Below are positions 12,001-18,000 of a stretch of DNA of 39,086 nt, in pieces. Positions within the stretch are counted from its first letter, which is position 1; each line of letters starts with the position of its first letter. Position numbers: made by a program. Source of the stretch: Verrucomicrobiota bacterium (lineage in GTDB: Bacteria; Verrucomicrobiota; Verrucomicrobiia; Opitutales; Cerasicoccaceae); assembly GCA_039818205.1 (NCBI GenBank), contig JBCBUK010000023.1:1-39086 (forward strand), written 5' to 3'.

Positions 12001-15000
12001 TGGACCAAATTGAAGAAAAACCAAGCCGGCGGCCAGGACGTCGCCGAAGAAGAGACCGCTAAATTTGACCTGATTCAAACAATTCACATAGTTCGCCACC
12101 ATGAAAAACTACGATTACCAGCTGACATTAGAATCCCTTTGGGAAAAAGCCGTCACGCAATACAAAGATGGCCAACGCGGAGCCAACACCTATTTCTCGG
12201 AAGACGAGACGCAATGGCTTCGGGAGAATGGAATCACGCCCCAAGAAATCTATGATTTTGCCGAGGACCATAATAACTACGATAGTGATCCCGATTTCAT
12301 CACTTTTGCGACCATTACCAACGTCCGCCGCTCTTACTTCCTCAATCAAATGGGCGGTCAGTACACGGGAAAGACCGTGCCACCATCGGAGTACCCCGCG
12401 AAAAACGATGCCGTTGACGGCATCGTTTGGCTGCCTCGCCTAATTGAAAAGGCTCGCACGAAGCTGCGCGGAGAACTCGATAGTGACACCATGTATGATT
12501 GCGGTGGGGACCGTAAATTTTTCAAACAGCACGACATCAGCCCATCGGAATTCCTCCAATTCGTTGCCAGGAATTTTGACGATGGTCAGGCAATTATCAG
12601 CTGGGTGAAGCAACGCTCCCCTGCAATCGAGTCTGTATCTGCATAATATCAAATCTAACTCTCATGGAACACTACGATTACCACGTCCGCCTAAATGAAC
12701 TTTGGCAGAAGGCCGTCGACCTGTATAAGTCCGGCCAGGAAGGTGCCGAATCCTACTTTAGCGAAGAAGAAACTGCCTGGCTCGCTCAGAATGGCATTAC
12801 GGCACAAGAAATTTATGACTTCGCCGAGGATTATAACGATGTTGGCGAACCCAACTTCACCACCTTCGCGATGATTACCGATGTGCGGCGAAGCTATTTC
12901 CTCAACGAAATGAAGGGCGAGAAGACAGGCAATGTCACCGATCCCGGGTCTTACGCCGCTAAGGACTCGGAAGCAGCAGGCATCCGCTGGCTACCACGAA
13001 TCATCGGGAAGGCCCGTGCCAAACTCCGTGGCGAGCTGTCTCCAGACACCATGTATAGCTGTGGGGGTGATCGGAAATTCCTCAAGGAAAACGACATCCA
13101 CGCTGCACAGTTTTTGCAAGTCGTCGCAGAAAATTTTGACAACGACGATGCGATCATCGATTGGGTAAAAAAGGAGACCAACAAGGCCTAACCCGCAGAA
13201 GAGCCCGTCAATTTAATCGCAAGCCTGGGAATATCTCAGGCTTGTCGCGTTTCCGTTATGTGCTAGCGTCGTTGATCTTCGAAACCTACACAGTAGAATG
13301 AATATCGTTACAAAATCGTTTTTGGTATCCGTCACCTGCCTTGGCGCGGCACTCCTTCCGGCATCCTTAACCGCCGCAAAAGTGCTGCCGGTCCTGAACA
13401 GTCGGATCGTCGACCACACAATAACCGGTTCTGGGGTTACGGTTAGAATTGATTTAGATACGATTTTCGGCACCGAAGAAATTGATGACCAGGCGGTGCG
13501 GTTCACCTCGCAGTTTCCCCTAGACAGCAGCGACAAGTTTGTGATCGACCTCGCGTTGTTCAGCAATCGGACCCCGATCACCCGCACAAATTTCCTGACC
13601 TACGTCAACAGCGGCGCCTACGACAACCAATTCATCCATCGTCGACCACGAACTGATTTCGTTATCCAAGGTGGCAGCTGGTTTGTAAATTCTGACCCCA
13701 GCCTGACGCCGATCACTCCGAACGACCCCATTCAGAACGAGTTTGGAATATCGAATACCGAGTGGACGCTTTCCATGGCAAAACTCTCTGGTGATCCCGA
13801 CAGCGCGACAAGTGGATGGTTCATTAGTATTAGCGAAAATTCAGCGATTCTCGACCCGCAAAATGGTGGCTTCACGGTGTTTGGCCGCGTGCTACAATCA
13901 ACGCAGGATGACACAGCATTCCTCAGTTCAACCGACAACTTTCCGGTTCAAACGCTCAATGCAACTTTCGCTGAGATTCCATTGAACAATTTCGTATCGC
14001 CAAGCCTCTTTATTGAGAACCTCAATCTTTTCAGCTCGGCAACCCTTGTGCCAGTTACAGGAGCCGATGCAGGCGAATTGACCGACCTGACATATGCGGT
14101 GGTGACGAACAACAACGAGTCGCTATTCCAAGCTTCCATCGATGGCAATGACCTGGTCCTCACGACCACTCCGAATGGCTTCGGGAATGGAGCATTGCTC
14201 CTGACCGCAACTGACAGTGTGGGCAACATTGTAGAAACGACCGCGACCTTCGTCGTTGAACCATCGACCTTTGACTACTGGCGAAGCCAGAACTTTACGG
14301 GTGACGACATCACCGATGATGCCGTTAGCGGGCCAACTGCAGACTTCAATAACGATGGTTTCACGAATTTAGATGATTACAGCATTGGTGATGAAATACT
14401 CGCTTTTCGTGGACCTCAAACCCTTTCCGAATTCACGATCAACGATACGTCAGATACGCCAACGCTGGTGTTTCCATTTCGCAACGACGTTACCGATATC
14501 GAGTTCACGATCGAGTACAGTCCTGATCTTGGGGCGACGCCTTGGGCCTCAATCCCATTTAACATTACCGATCGCACCACCGATGGCATCCTCGATACAA
14601 TCACCGTCGAAATAGATACCTCCGGCCTGACTCCAGGTGCGGATGCATTCTTCCGGCGGGGGATTCGATTTATCACAAACTAGACGCGTTGGCTCATCAG
14701 ACGAGAGAAGCCGAAGGCCGGTTAAAACAACTCGCCCTGAACGCTCTCTGTGGCCTCACCAAGGAACTCTGCGTAGCGCTTGTGCCATTCGTCCAACTTG
14801 CGAAGATAATAATTCGGATCGTAAGGCAAGGTCTGCGCATCAAACGAATCTAACGGACGCGCCGTCTGCCAATCAGGGTTCTTTTTCTTCTCCCCATAAG
14901 TGATGAAGTATTTCACATACTCACCCATACGTGGAATTGGATCCAGTCGCAACGCCACCTCTAATGACGCGCGACGTGATTTGGTTCCCGCTTCGACCGC

Positions 15001-18000
15001 ACTCCGATAGGCTTCGGGATTTTGGGATAGATATTCGCGCTTGGCCAACTGGCCAACGGGCACGTCGCTAGAAGCGAGCTGCTCACGGTATTGAGTTTCG
15101 AGCTCCATCGGCGTGTCTTCCGTAGCCCCGAGCCGCCAATAAATCAATCGGTTCGTAAGATTCTTTAGAATCGGTTCCATACCGCGAGAGCGCAAAGCCG
15201 ATCCCGCGATACTCACCTTCTCACCATCATAGAGCGCATAGTTCTTTGCCTTGTAGCAAAACATCGATTGATACCGACCGTCGAATTCGAGCTCAATCCC
15301 ATCCGGCATAATCTGGCTCACTTTGTCGAGCAAAGTTTCCGGAGTCGAAAAGTATTCCTCGCTCGCCAGATAGATTCCATCGGTATCGGCTTCCAAAACC
15401 GTGCACCCAAGGCGCTCAAACTCCGCAATCAATTGCTGAATCAACCCCCTTCCCTGCTTCGTAACTTCGGCAGCCAGATCACCATCGGCAAAGCGGGCTC
15501 CACCAAATCCAAGATATCCGTAGAAGGAATTGATCAAAATCTTATAGCTAGCCTGCCGCGCATCGTATTCTTTGCGCAGCACCGGATCAGTCTCCTCCCG
15601 GGCGAGTTTCTTATACTCCAGGCGATAGGTCCGCAATTCTTTGAGCATGGGAATGAATACGCCCAGCGAATCATTCACGGGATTGCGGTCGAGGTGCAGG
15701 AGCAAGCTCGGATAGAGCGAAGCCACATCGAAGTGCAACACGTTTTGGTAAACGCCTTGGACAAAACTTTTGCTGAATGCCCCGGCATAGGGTTTCACTT
15801 CACTGGGCTGGGGGATGGATTGGTTGGCGTGAAAATACTTCTCGAGAAACAATAGATCGACCTTGGCACCAGTTCCGCGAAGACAGGCCTCCTGGAGAGT
15901 CATTGGAAACACTTGTACCTGAGCGACGTAAGTCGGCAAAAGCAATGCCGCAATGCCTTCCGTCTCCCGCAAATCGTCGACCAAGTAAGCCCGAAACTGT
16001 TCGCGATCCTCGGAAAACATCACCTGGATTTTCTCCGGCTCGATATAAGTTCGATCGTCGGCCTCCGTGGTCACGCCAAGATACTTCGCCGCCGCTTTCA
16101 AAGTATAAGAAGGCAAATCCCGCGTTGTGACATCATACAGTTGAATCGCCAGGAAGGTATCGAATATGGTGCGACCAGGCAGATCACAACGTGGAAAATC
16201 GATCCATCTCTCAGCGACCCGCAAGCGACTATTGCGGAATGTCGCCTTCTGCCCGAAGCGTCCCCAAGCGCACGGCACTTTGAATCGCCGGCAGCGATGC
16301 TTCAGGAAGTCGAAATCGAACTTGAAAATATTGTGACCTTCAATGATGTCCGGATCCCAATCGGCAAGAACCTCATTTAGTTCCTTCAGGATCGCCGTTT
16401 CCGATTCATCATCGATCGCGACAACCTCCAACAGCTGAGTCCGCTCCCCCATTCGCAAACCAATCGCAATCACCCGGTCATCTCCACGGGTGGGATCCGG
16501 AAAACGGTTCGGCTCGCCGCTAAACGTTTCGATATCCAACTGGCACCGTCGCAACTCTCCAAAGGTCATCCCGTTAAAAAAGCGCTGTTTCGACGTCATC
16601 AAAAACTGATGCTCCAGCGGCTTAAGCGTCTCGAACGAAGCCTCACCTTTCTGCGCTTTGAGAAAATCTGTCAGTTCTTTCGGGGAATCCAGAGCCTTTC
16701 GCCACTGATAGGCACCCTCTCCGCCCAGGCGCTCCGATCCTTCAAGATCTTGATCCAACCACGTAAATGGCCGAAAGCTGAAGGAAGTCGTCAAGCGGAC
16801 ACCGCCACTTTCAACTTGGGCAGCCTGCACTTGCCCGGCTTTATCCAACCAAATTCCGGTTATCGGCTTTTTGCTATCTGACACCCAAACAAGCAAGGGA
16901 CTTTGCCACGGTTCTGCAACCCCAACCTAGCCCGGACCACAAGCCGCACTCCCCCCTTGACAGTCGGCTGCGACATGACTCAATCCTGACGGTTTGTCTA
17001 ATGAAGTTTCATAAGTATCACGCTCTGGGGAACGATTACCTCGTTCTCGATCCGAAAGATGGCAATCTACCCACGCCAAAACAAATCGTGGCCGTCTGCC
17101 ACCGTAACTTTGGGCTTGGCTCCGACGGAATTCTCTATGGCCCACTAAAAACCGAAAATGCCGACTTTGGGCTGCAGATTTGGAACCCCGACGGTTCTGA
17201 GGCCGAAAAGAGCGGAAATGGTCTGCGCATTTTTGCCCGCTACCTTTTCGATCAGGGTCAAGTTGGCGCACAACCCTTCACGGTTGAAACCCCTGGCGGA
17301 ATCGTGAAAATCGAGATTCACAACGACGGAGCGGCCATCGAGGTCGAGATGGGCCAGGTCTCCTTCCACAGCGACATCATTCCAGTTACCGGCGAATCAC
17401 GCGAGGTGCTCGACGAATCCGTGGAGATCAATGGCAATACCTACCAGTATTACGCTGCGACGATCGGCAACCCTCACGTGGTGCTCCCACTTGACGAGCA
17501 CACGCCCACTCTTGCCTGCGAACTTGGACCCGTCCTTGAGAATATGACTGAGCGCTTTCCCAATCGGACAAACGTCCAGTTGCTCAAGATATTGGACCGC
17601 AACAATATACAGATCGAAATCTGGGAACGCGGTGCCGGCTACACCCTCGCCTCGGGTTCCAGCAGCAGCGCGGCAGCCGCCGTTGCCCACAAAATGGGCG
17701 TATGTGACAATTCCATCATGGTTCACTGCCCCGGAGGTGATATAAAAATCAACATCGGCGAGAACTATGCTGTTACAATGACGGGGCCAGCGACCCGGGT
17801 CGGCGAATTCCTTATGGACTCCGGCGTACCCGACCAGGTTATTCCTGGCTAACGCTTGCCTCCAAGGTGTTAATTGGCATAATAATCGCAGCAACAAGAA
17901 TTTATGAGACCAGAAGCGGAAGGAAAAGAGAACAAAGCGAGCCTACTCGGACTTGGGCTCGATTGCAAAGACGGACATAAGCGTATTACTCAAGGCGAAA

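What a model noticed while it worked through the whole genome (the two positions that open the first line are those of the whole stretch)
14722..16884. Family-B (G3-like) DNA polymerase stands in for the missing DNA polymerase I
This genome has no family-A (Pol I) polymerase domain; it keeps only a stand-alone 5'-3' exonuclease/FEN (g01043, C3:85157-86035) and carries a single-copy, chromosomal 720-aa family-B polymerase (g03821) with intact ExoI-III and Pol A/B/C motifs and a C-terminal clamp motif QGELF. Across 301 sampled Verrucomicrobiota the orthologue of this PolB and a canonical Pol I are strictly mutually exclusive (138 PolB only, 117 Pol I only, 0 both, 46 neither), so the PolB is the likely gap-filling/Okazaki-maturation polymerase that displaced Pol I.
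Evidence so far: Six-frame PF00476: 0 hits at E<=0.001 in this genome and in 0 of 6 family genomes of that sample; canonical Pol I (E<1e-140) in only 22 of 151 Opitutales. PF00136 in 77 of 151 of the same sample; of the 22 Pol I genomes only G118 also has a PolB, of another kind (E 6e-40). Protein g03821 at E<=1e-20: 138 of 301 Verrucomicrobiota, identity falling with kinship (63-60% family, 58-50% order, 41-34% phylum). PF00476 at E<=1e-90: 117 of the same 301. Overlap 0, neither 46; Fisher p 1.6e-45, kinship not corrected; both states occur inside families f52 (36 PolB, 2 Pol I of 48) and f59 (10 and 6 of 21). phmmer against PDB: best match Thermococcus PolB 1wn7 (E 3e-42); the alignment keeps DIET, NxxxFD [...]
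(Added by a program. Inside this text positions count along the whole contig: contig position 1 is position 1 of the stretch shown here. "Call 12" and the like, gene names such as g00115 and contig names such as C1 are that model's own, and its searches are not shown. The text may have been shortened before it was handed on; [...] marks where a part breaks off. The agent that wrote the report below was given it as the finding of a first reader that could run no searches.)

Follow-up and report, generated by a model that had tools for sequence, protein, structure and literature searches.

The report
PolB polymerase alternates with Pol I
This bacterium lacks the near-universal DNA polymerase I and instead carries an intact archaeal/eukaryote-like family-B polymerase plus a separate flap nuclease, and across its phylum the two polymerases never occur together, which suggests they do the same job, although some relatives manage with neither.

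Summary
Window 14722-16884 (minus strand) encodes an intact 720-aa G3-type family-B polymerase with a C-terminal clamp motif. It is the only PolB in a 99.97%-complete genome that has no family-A polymerase and one stand-alone FEN.

In 401 sampled Verrucomicrobiota I found 183 with the PolB orthologue, 159 with a Pol I-type polymerase, 0 with both and 59 with neither. The exclusion survives a correction for kinship: in 16 independent contrasts the Pol I side never has PolB. It is also specific to G3, because Pol II-like PolBs do coexist with Pol I.

The "stand-in" reading is only partly right:
- 54 genomes, six of them single-contig, keep only the solo FEN, so PolB is dispensable.
- The solo FEN is an old lineage of its own, not a Pol I remnant.
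- In the two families where both polymerases occur, the family-A enzyme sits beside the solo FEN and is FEN-less in 8 of 9 genomes. There it probably ousted PolB.

Best reading: solo FEN plus clamp-bound PolB is an interchangeable alternative to Pol I. No experiment supports this yet. I found the link in none of the papers searched or read.

The parts
14722..16884 (-). polB: 720-aa G3-type family-B DNA polymerase (N-terminal domain, 3'-5' exonuclease, polymerase). Stop codon at 14722-14724.
   Evidence: ORF and translation. PF00136 and PF03104. Thermococcus PolB 2.6e-42 over residues 111-695. Only PF00136 locus in the genome.
16525..16536 (-). ExoI motif DIET (residues 117-120)
   Evidence: Aligned to D141/E143 of 1wn7. 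Nearly invariant in 22 orthologues.
16315..16332 (-). ExoII motif NIFKFD (residues 185-190)
   Evidence: N185, F189 and D190 invariant in 22 orthologues. Aligned to the NGDNFD of 1wn7.
15973..15987 (-). ExoIII motif YLVDD (residues 300-304)
   Evidence: Y300, D303 and D304 nearly invariant.
15706..15729 (-). Polymerase motif A DVASLYPS (residues 386-393)
   Evidence: D386 and SLYPS invariant. Aligned to DFRSLYPS of 1wn7.
15514..15543 (-). Polymerase motif B KILINSFYGY (residues 448-457)
   Evidence: Invariant K448 and INSFYGY.
15376..15393 (-). Polymerase motif C EADTDG (residues 498-503), with the Glu that marks the G3 / Pol-epsilon-N clade
   Evidence: E498, D500, T501, D502 and G503 invariant in 22 orthologues. 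The Glu is named as the synapomorphy in PMC7544198, section 17.
15238..15246 (-). KxY motif KNY (residues 547-549)
   Evidence: Invariant.
14725..14739 (-). C-terminal beta-clamp-binding motif QGELF (residues 716-720)
   Evidence: Translation. By eye, 11 of 21 full-length orthologues have a clear related tail such as QPDLF, QPTLF, EPSLF, QRELSL or QETLKL; 5 are doubtful and 5 have none. In the complex model, residues 713-720 contact clamp residues 171-176, 252, 257, 356 and 368-375.
16885..17000 (.). 116-bp intergenic region between polB and the divergent dapF (17001-17852 +); presumed polB promoter
   Evidence: ORF map and dapF Pfam hit at 1e-54. The 114-aa minus-strand ORF at 16927-17271 overlaps dapF and has no Pfam hit. 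The promoter itself was not tested.

Best explanation
The gene encodes an active, proofreading G3 family-B DNA polymerase that is tethered to the beta clamp. Together with the separately encoded FEN (C3:85157-86032) and ligase, it supplies the polymerase half of what Pol I does in most bacteria. That means filling the gap left when the FEN removes RNA primers on the lagging strand, and filling excision-repair gaps. The arrangement resembles the PolB/Fen1/ligase set of archaea and the Pol delta/FEN1 set of eukaryotes.

In Verrucomicrobiota, 'solo FEN + PolB-G3' and 'Pol I-type family-A polymerase' are interchangeable modules. A genome keeps one and never both. PolB is an advantage rather than a necessity: it has been lost many times, leaving the solo FEN alone, and gap filling then presumably falls to Pol III.

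Shown here: gene integrity, conservation, vertical descent, the phyletic pattern and its independence from kinship, and the separate ancestry of the solo FEN.

Inferred: the activity, clamp use in vivo, the gap-filling role, and that Pol III substitutes in FEN-only lineages.
For: 1. All exonuclease and polymerase motifs are intact, and they are invariant or nearly so in 22 orthologues. dN/dS is 0.06-0.20 in 6 close pairs.
2. Of 401 genomes, 183 have PolB-G3, 159 have a Pol I-type polymerase and 0 have both. PolB is present in 183 of the 237 genomes that have a solo FEN and lack a Pol I-type polymerase.
3. On the DnaE1 tree of 93 representatives at least 16 A/B changes are needed. In 16 independent pairs that differ in Pol I, PolB goes the opposite way in about 9.5, ties in about 6.5 and never goes the same way (median sign test p 0.002). 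With A and B rows only, 13 of 13 pairs are opposite.
4. There are natural swaps on a constant solo-FEN background. In f29, genus g77 (6 of 6 genomes examined) has a FEN-less PolA plus a solo FEN, where sister genera have PolB plus a solo FEN. G031 and G232 in f22 show the same. G367 has a fused Pol I and still keeps a solo FEN.
5. The exclusion is specific to G3. G352 and G370 have Pol II-like PolBs together with Pol I.
6. PolB co-diverges with DnaE1 (Spearman 0.70, 38 taxa) and with the solo FEN (0.74, 27 taxa), both with permutation p 0.001. The neighbours are housekeeping genes and GC is flat.
7. In the clamp model, PolB 661-720 with two copies of the genome's DnaN scores ipSAE 0.62 against a best control of 0.00. 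That mark was reached by 51 of 78 solved complexes and 2 of 108 mismatched pairs. The runs share at least 81% of contacts and the partner pLDDT is at least 52.
8. Every Pol I-less genome keeps a FEN: 54 of 59 'neither' genomes and 27 of 27 PolB genomes tested. This matches the rule stated in PMC12926913, section 15.
Against: 1. 54 of 401 genomes have the solo FEN with neither polymerase; 49 of them are at least 90% complete and six are single-contig. PolB has been lost inside genera g26, g60 and g69. G168 and G192 are left with only DnaE1, DinB and, in G168, DnaE2. So no stand-in polymerase is required.
2. All evidence is comparative. There are no expression, genetic or biochemical data.
3. 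The representatives for the tree were chosen one per family and state, which means by the trait. DnaE1 is a single gene and misplaces some rows, such as G195. The trees are FastTree or quick IQ-TREE.
4. The sign test is partly built in: with zero co-occurrence, 'same way' cannot happen.
5. PMC12926913 says all Chlorobi carry G3 and flags only Tenericutes and Verrucomicrobia as depleted in Pol I. So G3 probably coexists with Pol I elsewhere. I could not test this.
6. The clamp model is a textbook type of pair and may score from memory.
7. Pol epsilon, the eukaryotic relative of G3, is reported to be poor at strand displacement (PMC5041465; I saw only the search listing with the start of its abstract).
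8. Some orthologues (G048, genus g69) have lost the ExoI/ExoIII motifs.
Confidence: 0.55

Rival explanations
1. PolB-G3 is an accessory repair, restart or translesion polymerase like E. coli Pol II. It has no special share in Pol I's work. The exclusion from Pol I would then reflect something else, such as competition for the clamp or for nicks, or co-transfer of gene sets.
For: The same architecture, proofreading and clamp motif as Pol II. PolB is dispensable in 54 lineages. PMC12926913 calls bacterial PolBs non-essential accessory enzymes. The genome also has DinB, an ImuB-DnaE2 cassette and a PolX-like protein for repair.
Against: Pol II-like PolBs coexist with Pol I in this very phylum, while G3 never does. 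There are 16 independent contrasts and swaps on a constant solo-FEN background. PolB is retained in 183 of 237 solo-FEN genomes that lack a Pol I-type polymerase and co-diverges with the solo FEN. Nothing here shows damage-inducible control; that test was inconclusive.
Confidence: 0.25
2. PolB-G3 is part of the replisome proper, either as a second replicative (lagging-strand) polymerase or as a trans-acting proofreader for Pol III. The loss of Pol I would be a side effect.
For: G3 is related to the catalytic half of Pol epsilon. It has proofreading and a clamp motif. PMC12926913 notes that Chlorobi, all of which carry G3, lack a canonical DnaQ and have an inactive PHP domain.
Against: PolB has been lost repeatedly, even within genera. 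The Verrucomicrobia DnaE1 rows in the paper's supplement carry the active-type PHP residues HHDHEHCDH. Some orthologues have lost their own exonuclease motifs. This reading does not explain the exclusion from Pol I.
Confidence: 0.08
3. The gene is a passenger of a virus or other mobile element and has no host function.
For: Phages of Salinibacter and Nostoc carry G3 PolBs.
Against: It is single-copy among housekeeping genes with flat GC. Its tree matches the host marker and the taxonomy. dN/dS is 0.06-0.20. Identity to the phage genes is only 27-35%.
Confidence: 0.02

Closest known systems
Bacterial G3 group of family-B DNA polymerases (Kazlauskas et al. 2020, PMC7544198; Timinskas et al. 2026, PMC12926913)
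   Same: Canonical N-terminal/exonuclease/polymerase architecture. Glu in motif C (E-x-DTDG). Intact exonuclease and polymerase sites. C-terminal beta-clamp motif. The best phage relatives are the Salinibacter and Nostoc phage PolBs that the 2020 paper names as the only G3 members outside bacteria.
   Different: Nothing structural; it is a member. What is added here is a phyletic link to Pol I and to a solo-FEN lineage. The sections I read (15, 18, 23; passages of 4, 14, 24) do not draw that link; they call G3 uncharacterised.
E. coli DNA polymerase II (G1 PolB)
   Same: A family-B bacterial polymerase with proofreading and a C-terminal clamp motif.
   Different: Only 8e-21 to Pol II, against 2.6e-42 to archaeal PolB. 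Motif C is EADTDG, not YGDTDS. Pol II-like enzymes in this phylum coexist with Pol I, whereas G3 does not.
DNA polymerase I (PolA1), and the 'PolA1-like plus solo 5'-3' exonuclease' arrangement
   Same: The proposed role: proofreading gap-filling polymerase working with a FEN-type 5' nuclease. The FEN is always retained when Pol I is missing.
   Different: An unrelated polymerase fold (family B, not A). The nuclease is a separate gene of separate ancestry. PolB binds the clamp.
Archaeal PolB + Fen1 + ligase and eukaryotic Pol delta + FEN1 + Lig1 Okazaki-fragment maturation
   Same: A family-B polymerase on a sliding clamp with a stand-alone flap nuclease. The closest solved sequences are Thermococcales PolBs. 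For the Thermococcus reconstitution (PMC4432273) I saw only the search listing with the start of its abstract.
   Different: Here the clamp is the bacterial beta clamp and the FEN is the bacterial Pol I-type 5' nuclease, not Fen1. The function is inferred, not tested.

Membership tests
Family-B DNA polymerase | PolB polymerase and exonuclease domains | tested here: met
   PF00136 2.7e-24 and PF03104 4.5e-12. 127 PDB PolB sequences at E<=0.001.
Family-B DNA polymerase | ExoI-III and polymerase motifs A, B, C with their catalytic Asp/Glu | tested here: met
   D117/E119, D190, Y300/D304, D386, K448 and D500/D502 are present and aligned to 1wn7. They are conserved in 22 orthologues.
G3 bacterial PolB group | Conserved Glu in motif C, shared with Pol-epsilon-N and B10 | tested here: met
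   E498 in EADTDG, invariant in 22 sequences. The criterion comes from PMC7544198, section 17.
G3 bacterial PolB group | Canonical N-terminal + active exonuclease + polymerase architecture with a beta-clamp motif | tested here: met
   QGELF tail and clamp model at 0.62 against a best control of 0.00. The criterion comes from PMC12926913, section 18.
G3 bacterial PolB group | Clusters with G3 reference sequences | tested here: inconclusive
   The best phage hits are the Salinibacter (34.7% identity, 6e-96) and Nostoc/Anabaena phage PolBs that the 2020 paper assigns to G3. I built no tree or CLANS map with the papers' reference set; the B-family sheet of the supplement was not held.
E. coli Pol II-like (G1) PolB | Pol II-type motif C (YGDTDS, as seen in G352/G370) and closest similarity to Pol II | tested here: not met
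   Motif C is EADTDG. Pol II scores 8e-21 against 2.6e-42 for archaeal PolB.
G2 / PolB2 (inactivated exonuclease) | ExoI not conserved and ExoIII missing | tested here: not met
   Both motifs are intact here. The criterion comes from PMC7544198.
Pol I functional analogue (works like; not a member) | Gap filling coupled to 5' flap or primer removal in vivo | not testable with these tools
   Only phyletic complementarity and the presence of a solo FEN.

The most novel reading that the evidence does not exclude
Much of Verrucomicrobiota runs an archaeal/eukaryote-style lagging-strand maturation module: a clamp-bound, Pol-epsilon-N-like PolB with an anciently separate FEN. This module is inherited vertically. 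Family-A polymerases, fused or FEN-less, have repeatedly come in and ousted PolB, or the reverse. That would be a phylum-wide, two-way non-orthologous displacement of a near-universal bacterial enzyme, with a viable 'FEN-only' state in between.
Probability: 0.35. Interest if true: 0.8.

Novelty: new variant of a known kind. Interest (0 to 1): 0.68.

Why it matters
Pol I is present in about 96% of bacteria (PMC12926913). G3 is the second-largest bacterial PolB group, and no function is known for it.

A strict exclusion that is independent of kinship and specific to G3, together with natural swaps on a constant solo-FEN background, gives G3 a concrete and testable job. It also offers a bacterial counterpart of the PolB/FEN maturation system of archaea and eukaryotes.

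The FEN-only relatives, including congeneric pairs such as G384 and G168, are ready-made natural knock-outs. They can be used to ask what the polymerase half of Pol I is really needed for.

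Tried and rejected
- Synteny between the solo-FEN locus of G000 and the polA locus of G054: none apart from the FEN domain itself at 35% identity. 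So there is no in-place truncation.
- The search for related loci on genome contigs with a 22-sequence alignment returned only Opitutales (80 of 80 loci), and the single scan was then spent. I therefore could not test G3 and Pol I co-occurrence in Chlorobi or any other phylum.
- The A- and B-family sheets of the PMC12926913 supplement were not held; the archive is cut after the C-family sheet.
- SOS control. I recalled the Verrucomicrobia LexA box as TGTTC-N4-GAACA. The source paper, Erill 2016, is not held. With up to 1 mismatch the box is absent within 14-18 kb of C23, but it is also absent around the imuB-dnaE2 cassette that should be the positive control. The test is inconclusive.
- RNA evidence: no RNA holder was listed.
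- Genus g69 showed PolB as two matches, which suggested a split gene or an intein. It is one 665-689-aa frame with a divergent N-terminal half.
- The weak family-A hits in PolB genomes might have been hidden Pol I. In the copies I examined they are exonuclease+polymerase proteins without FEN, often in 1490-1530-aa frames, and multi-copy in some genomes.
- Conserved operon partners: neither FEN nor DnaN lies within 3 kb of polB in 80 Opitutales loci. proS and a weak DUF2017-like ORF lie upstream in 28 and 36 of 55 loci.
- In the first Pol I tree, two rows (G367, G007) used the wrong frame. I left them out of the distance comparison.
- Literature searches found no paper linking G3 PolB to Pol I loss.
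- Earlier notes of this scan: one look-up returned only an unrelated FEN/exonuclease note.

Full report
**The gene**

Window 14722-16884, minus strand, is a single open frame of 720 aa from a GTG. The frame stays open to a TTG at 16896, and a 708-aa version is on record. It matches PF00136 at 2.7e-24 and PF03104 at 4.5e-12. Among solved structures it is closest to Thermococcales PolB: 1wn7 scores 2.6e-42 over residues 111-695. E. coli Pol II scores 8e-21 and Pol alpha, delta and epsilon score 1e-18 to 1e-12.

All catalytic motifs are present. They are DIET 117-120, NIFKFD 185-190, YLVDD 300-304, DVASLYPS 386-393, KILINSFYGY 448-457, EADTDG 498-503 and KNY 547-549. The protein ends in QGELF.

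The flanks are housekeeping genes: RNase R, two DUF5069 genes and a cyclophilin on one side, and a divergent dapF, thioredoxin and cytochrome-c assembly genes on the other. GC is flat at 0.49-0.55.

**The genome**

G000 has 66 contigs and is 99.97% complete. Its inventory is:
- No family-A polymerase; the best PF00476 E-value is 0.63.
- No second PolB.
- One stand-alone 292-aa FEN with both 5'-nuclease domains at C3:85157-86032.
- DnaE1, a DnaE2 next to an ImuB-like gene, DinB, and a PolX-like protein with a PHP domain but only a weak palm match.

**Which PolB it is**

The Glu two residues before DTDG is the synapomorphy that Kazlauskas et al. give for G3, B10 and Pol-epsilon-N (PMC7544198, section 17, read whole). 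It is invariant in 22 orthologues from across the phylum.

The best matches among 50,697 phage records are Salinibacter phages (34.7% identity, 87% coverage, 6e-96), followed by Nostoc and Anabaena phages. Those are the two phage groups that paper names as the only G3 carriers outside bacteria.

I built no tree with the papers' reference set. Membership therefore rests on motifs, architecture and these hits.

**The phyletic pattern**

I sampled 401 Verrucomicrobiota genomes. The orthologue is present in 183. All of those score E<=6e-64, and the next best hit is 1e-13. A high-scoring PF00476 domain is present in 159. All of those score E<=1.2e-143, and the next is 3e-84. The overlap is 0, and 59 genomes have neither (cross-tabulated by hand-transcribed handles).

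Of the 183 PolB genomes, 15 also hold a lower-scoring family-A polymerase. The copies I examined are exonuclease+polymerase proteins without FEN. They often sit in 1490-1530-aa frames, on small contigs and in several copies, so they are not Pol I. One, in G160, is a 702-aa Klenow-like protein.

Four Pol I genomes gave weak PolB hits. In the two that pass Pfam (G352, G370), motif C is YGDTDS and the tails are QPDLF and QQELF, which makes them Pol II-like. The exclusion therefore concerns G3 and not PolB in general.

**A third state**

I searched the 59 'neither' genomes for FEN.
- 54 have a solo FEN in frames of 289-536 aa.
- 5 have no FEN at all. They sit mostly in Pol I families, so they are probably assembly gaps.

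The FEN-only state is real. 49 of the 54 genomes are at least 90% complete. Six are single contigs: G168, G132, G279, G153, G090 and G114.

G168 belongs to the same genus as the PolB carrier G384. At the syntenic position it has a rhamnogalacturonan lyase, and it has no PF00136 match at E<=1. G168 retains DnaE1, DnaE2/ImuB and DinB. G192 retains only DnaE1 and DinB.

PolB and FEN-only genomes mix within three genera and seven families. PolB is therefore dispensable and has been lost often.

**Correction for kinship**

I took one representative per family and state, plus extra genera in mixed families. That gave 93 rows, and I note that they were chosen by the trait. I built a DnaE1 tree with FastTree.
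- At least 16 changes separate Pol I and PolB rows.
- Pol I versus not-Pol I needs 18 changes, of which 16 are forced by well-supported branches.
- Of 16 independent pairs that differ in Pol I, PolB goes the other way in about 9.5, ties in about 6.5 where the partner is FEN-only, and never goes the same way. The median p is 0.002.
- With A and B rows only, 13 of 13 pairs are opposite.

Because no genome has both, 'same way' cannot occur. The real content of the test is that the Pol I-less partner usually has PolB. DnaE1 is also an imperfect species proxy. G195 and five other Pol I genomes form an odd long-stemmed clade.

**History of the parts**

The PolB tree (69 sequences) recovers Opitutales and the other large clades of the DnaE1 tree. 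Patristic distances correlate as follows, all with permutation p 0.001:

| Comparison | Spearman r | Taxa |
|---|---|---|
| PolB vs DnaE1 | 0.70 | 38 |
| PolB vs solo FEN | 0.74 | 27 |
| Pol I vs DnaE1 | 0.46 | 18 |

I also built an IQ-TREE (quick search, LG+C20+F+G4) of 58 FEN sequences. It holds 38 solo FENs from PolB, FEN-only and FEN-less-PolA genomes of 31 families, and 20 Pol I-fused domains. One branch separates all solo from all fused sequences, with SH-aLRT 96. The solo FEN is therefore an old lineage of its own. It was not left behind by a recent truncation of Pol I, even in FEN-only lineages that sit next to Pol I lineages (f12, f34).

**The swaps**

I examined 35 Pol I-state genomes for FEN linkage.
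- 24 have the classical fused enzyme.
- 3 are ambiguous because the gene lies at a contig edge.
- 8 have a FEN-less family-A polymerase with a separate solo FEN. These are all six g77 genomes of family f29, plus G031 and G232 of f22. In G232 the two genes lie 177 kb apart on one contig.

G367 (f22) has a fused Pol I and also keeps a solo FEN. Families f22 and f29 are the only ones in which Pol I-type and PolB genomes both occur. The g77 solo FENs nest among those of their PolB-bearing relatives.

On an unchanged solo-FEN background, then, PolB and a family-A polymerase are alternatives. In these cases the family-A enzyme looks like the newcomer. The fused Pol I and FEN sequences of G195 and G367 cluster together even though their hosts are distant, which also suggests transfer of Pol I.

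**Clamp binding**

I modelled PolB residues 661-720 with two copies of the genome's main DnaN.
- The score was ipSAE 0.62 against a best control of 0.00.
- That mark was reached by 51 of 78 solved complexes and by 2 of 108 mismatched pairs.
- The runs share at least 81% of their contacts, and the partner pLDDT is at least 52.
- Residues 713-720 lie against clamp residues 171-176, 252, 257, 356 and 368-375.

Peptide-clamp complexes are textbook cases, so this pass shows likeness to them rather than proof that this copy binds. By eye, related tails are clear in 11 of 21 full-length orthologues, doubtful in 5 and absent in 5.

**Selection**

dN/dS is 0.06-0.20 in six close pairs. Some dS values are near saturation.

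**Literature**

For Timinskas et al. 2026 (PMC12926913) I read the outline, sections 15, 18 and 23 whole, and passages of sections 4, 14 and 24. I also read part 1 of the supplement and ran one search in it. The paper states that:
- many Verrucomicrobia lack Pol I but keep a solo FEN;
- G3 is uncharacterised, with intact active sites and a clamp motif;
- all Chlorobi have G3.

In what I read, it does not connect G3 with the loss of Pol I. Its A- and B-family tables were not available to me.

Four full-text searches turned up no such claim. Neither did passages of PMC10201439 and PMC2474590. The scan's earlier notes returned only an unrelated finding.

**Verdict**

The interpretation needs reshaping. 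The data fit better with two interchangeable solutions: fused Pol I, or an old solo FEN that is usually paired with G3 PolB. There is also a viable FEN-only state, and the direction of replacement is unresolved. The functional role remains an inference.

Noticed in passing
G000 contigs C10:6027-6692, C30:13454-13798, C13:117293-117643 (L319, L320): The genome has three DnaN-like beta-clamp genes, in frames of 375/384, 362/366 and about 398 aa. The C30 copy has all three clamp domains by Pfam. Whether one of them is dedicated to PolB or to DnaE2 is unknown.
   Followed up: partly
G034, G055, G076, G124, G118, G175 (genus g77, family f29); G031, G232 (f22); loci L311-L314: A high-scoring Pol I-type polymerase without the 5' nuclease domain (frames 555-757 aa), with a separate solo FEN. 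These genomes sit in lineages whose relatives carry PolB instead.
   Followed up: yes
G367: C2:150536-153040 and C6:13979-14464: A fused 843-aa Pol I together with an extra 356-aa solo FEN in one genome. This may be a transitional state after Pol I was acquired.
   Followed up: partly
L073 (G048, family f13); L321 and L323 (genus g69, family f22): These G3 PolB orthologues keep motif C but have lost the ExoI/ExoIII motifs (VEVLS in place of DIET in G048; no DIET in g69). They probably lack proofreading.
   Followed up: partly
G168:C1:1100832-1103087 (L050:6833-9088): In a single-contig congener of a PolB carrier, the syntenic polB slot holds a 751-aa PL4 rhamnogalacturonan lyase. The genome has no PolB or Pol I anywhere.
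   Followed up: yes
G195 (family f8, genus g32): L193, L291, L310: Its DnaE1 falls outside the Opitutales clade, and its Pol I and fused FEN domain group with those of distant hosts (g77, G367). Its family-mate G192 behaves as an ordinary Opitutales member. This could be transfer of replication genes or a taxonomic misplacement.
   Followed up: no
G065, G299, G149 (L159, L160, L162, L163): Family-A exonuclease+polymerase modules at the C-terminus of 1490-1530-aa frames, with up to 8 matches per genome. They fit the primase-fused 'Hot Spring' PolAs reported for Verrucomicrobia in PMC10201439 (passage seen).
   Followed up: partly
G352:C1:861-1904 and G370:C2:205670-206698 (L325, L326): Pol II-like PolBs (motif C YGDTDS; tails QPDLF and QQELF) that coexist with canonical Pol I.
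   Followed up: partly
window 12101-12646 and 12664-13191 (+): Two tandem paralogous DUF5069 genes between RNase R and the cyclophilin. RNase R and DUF5069 lie near polB in 12 of 55 Opitutales loci with full flanks.
   Followed up: no
G000:C1:447006-450146: An ImuB-like inactive Y-family gene next to DnaE2, a mutasome cassette. The same pairing occurs in G168 and G384.
   Followed up: no
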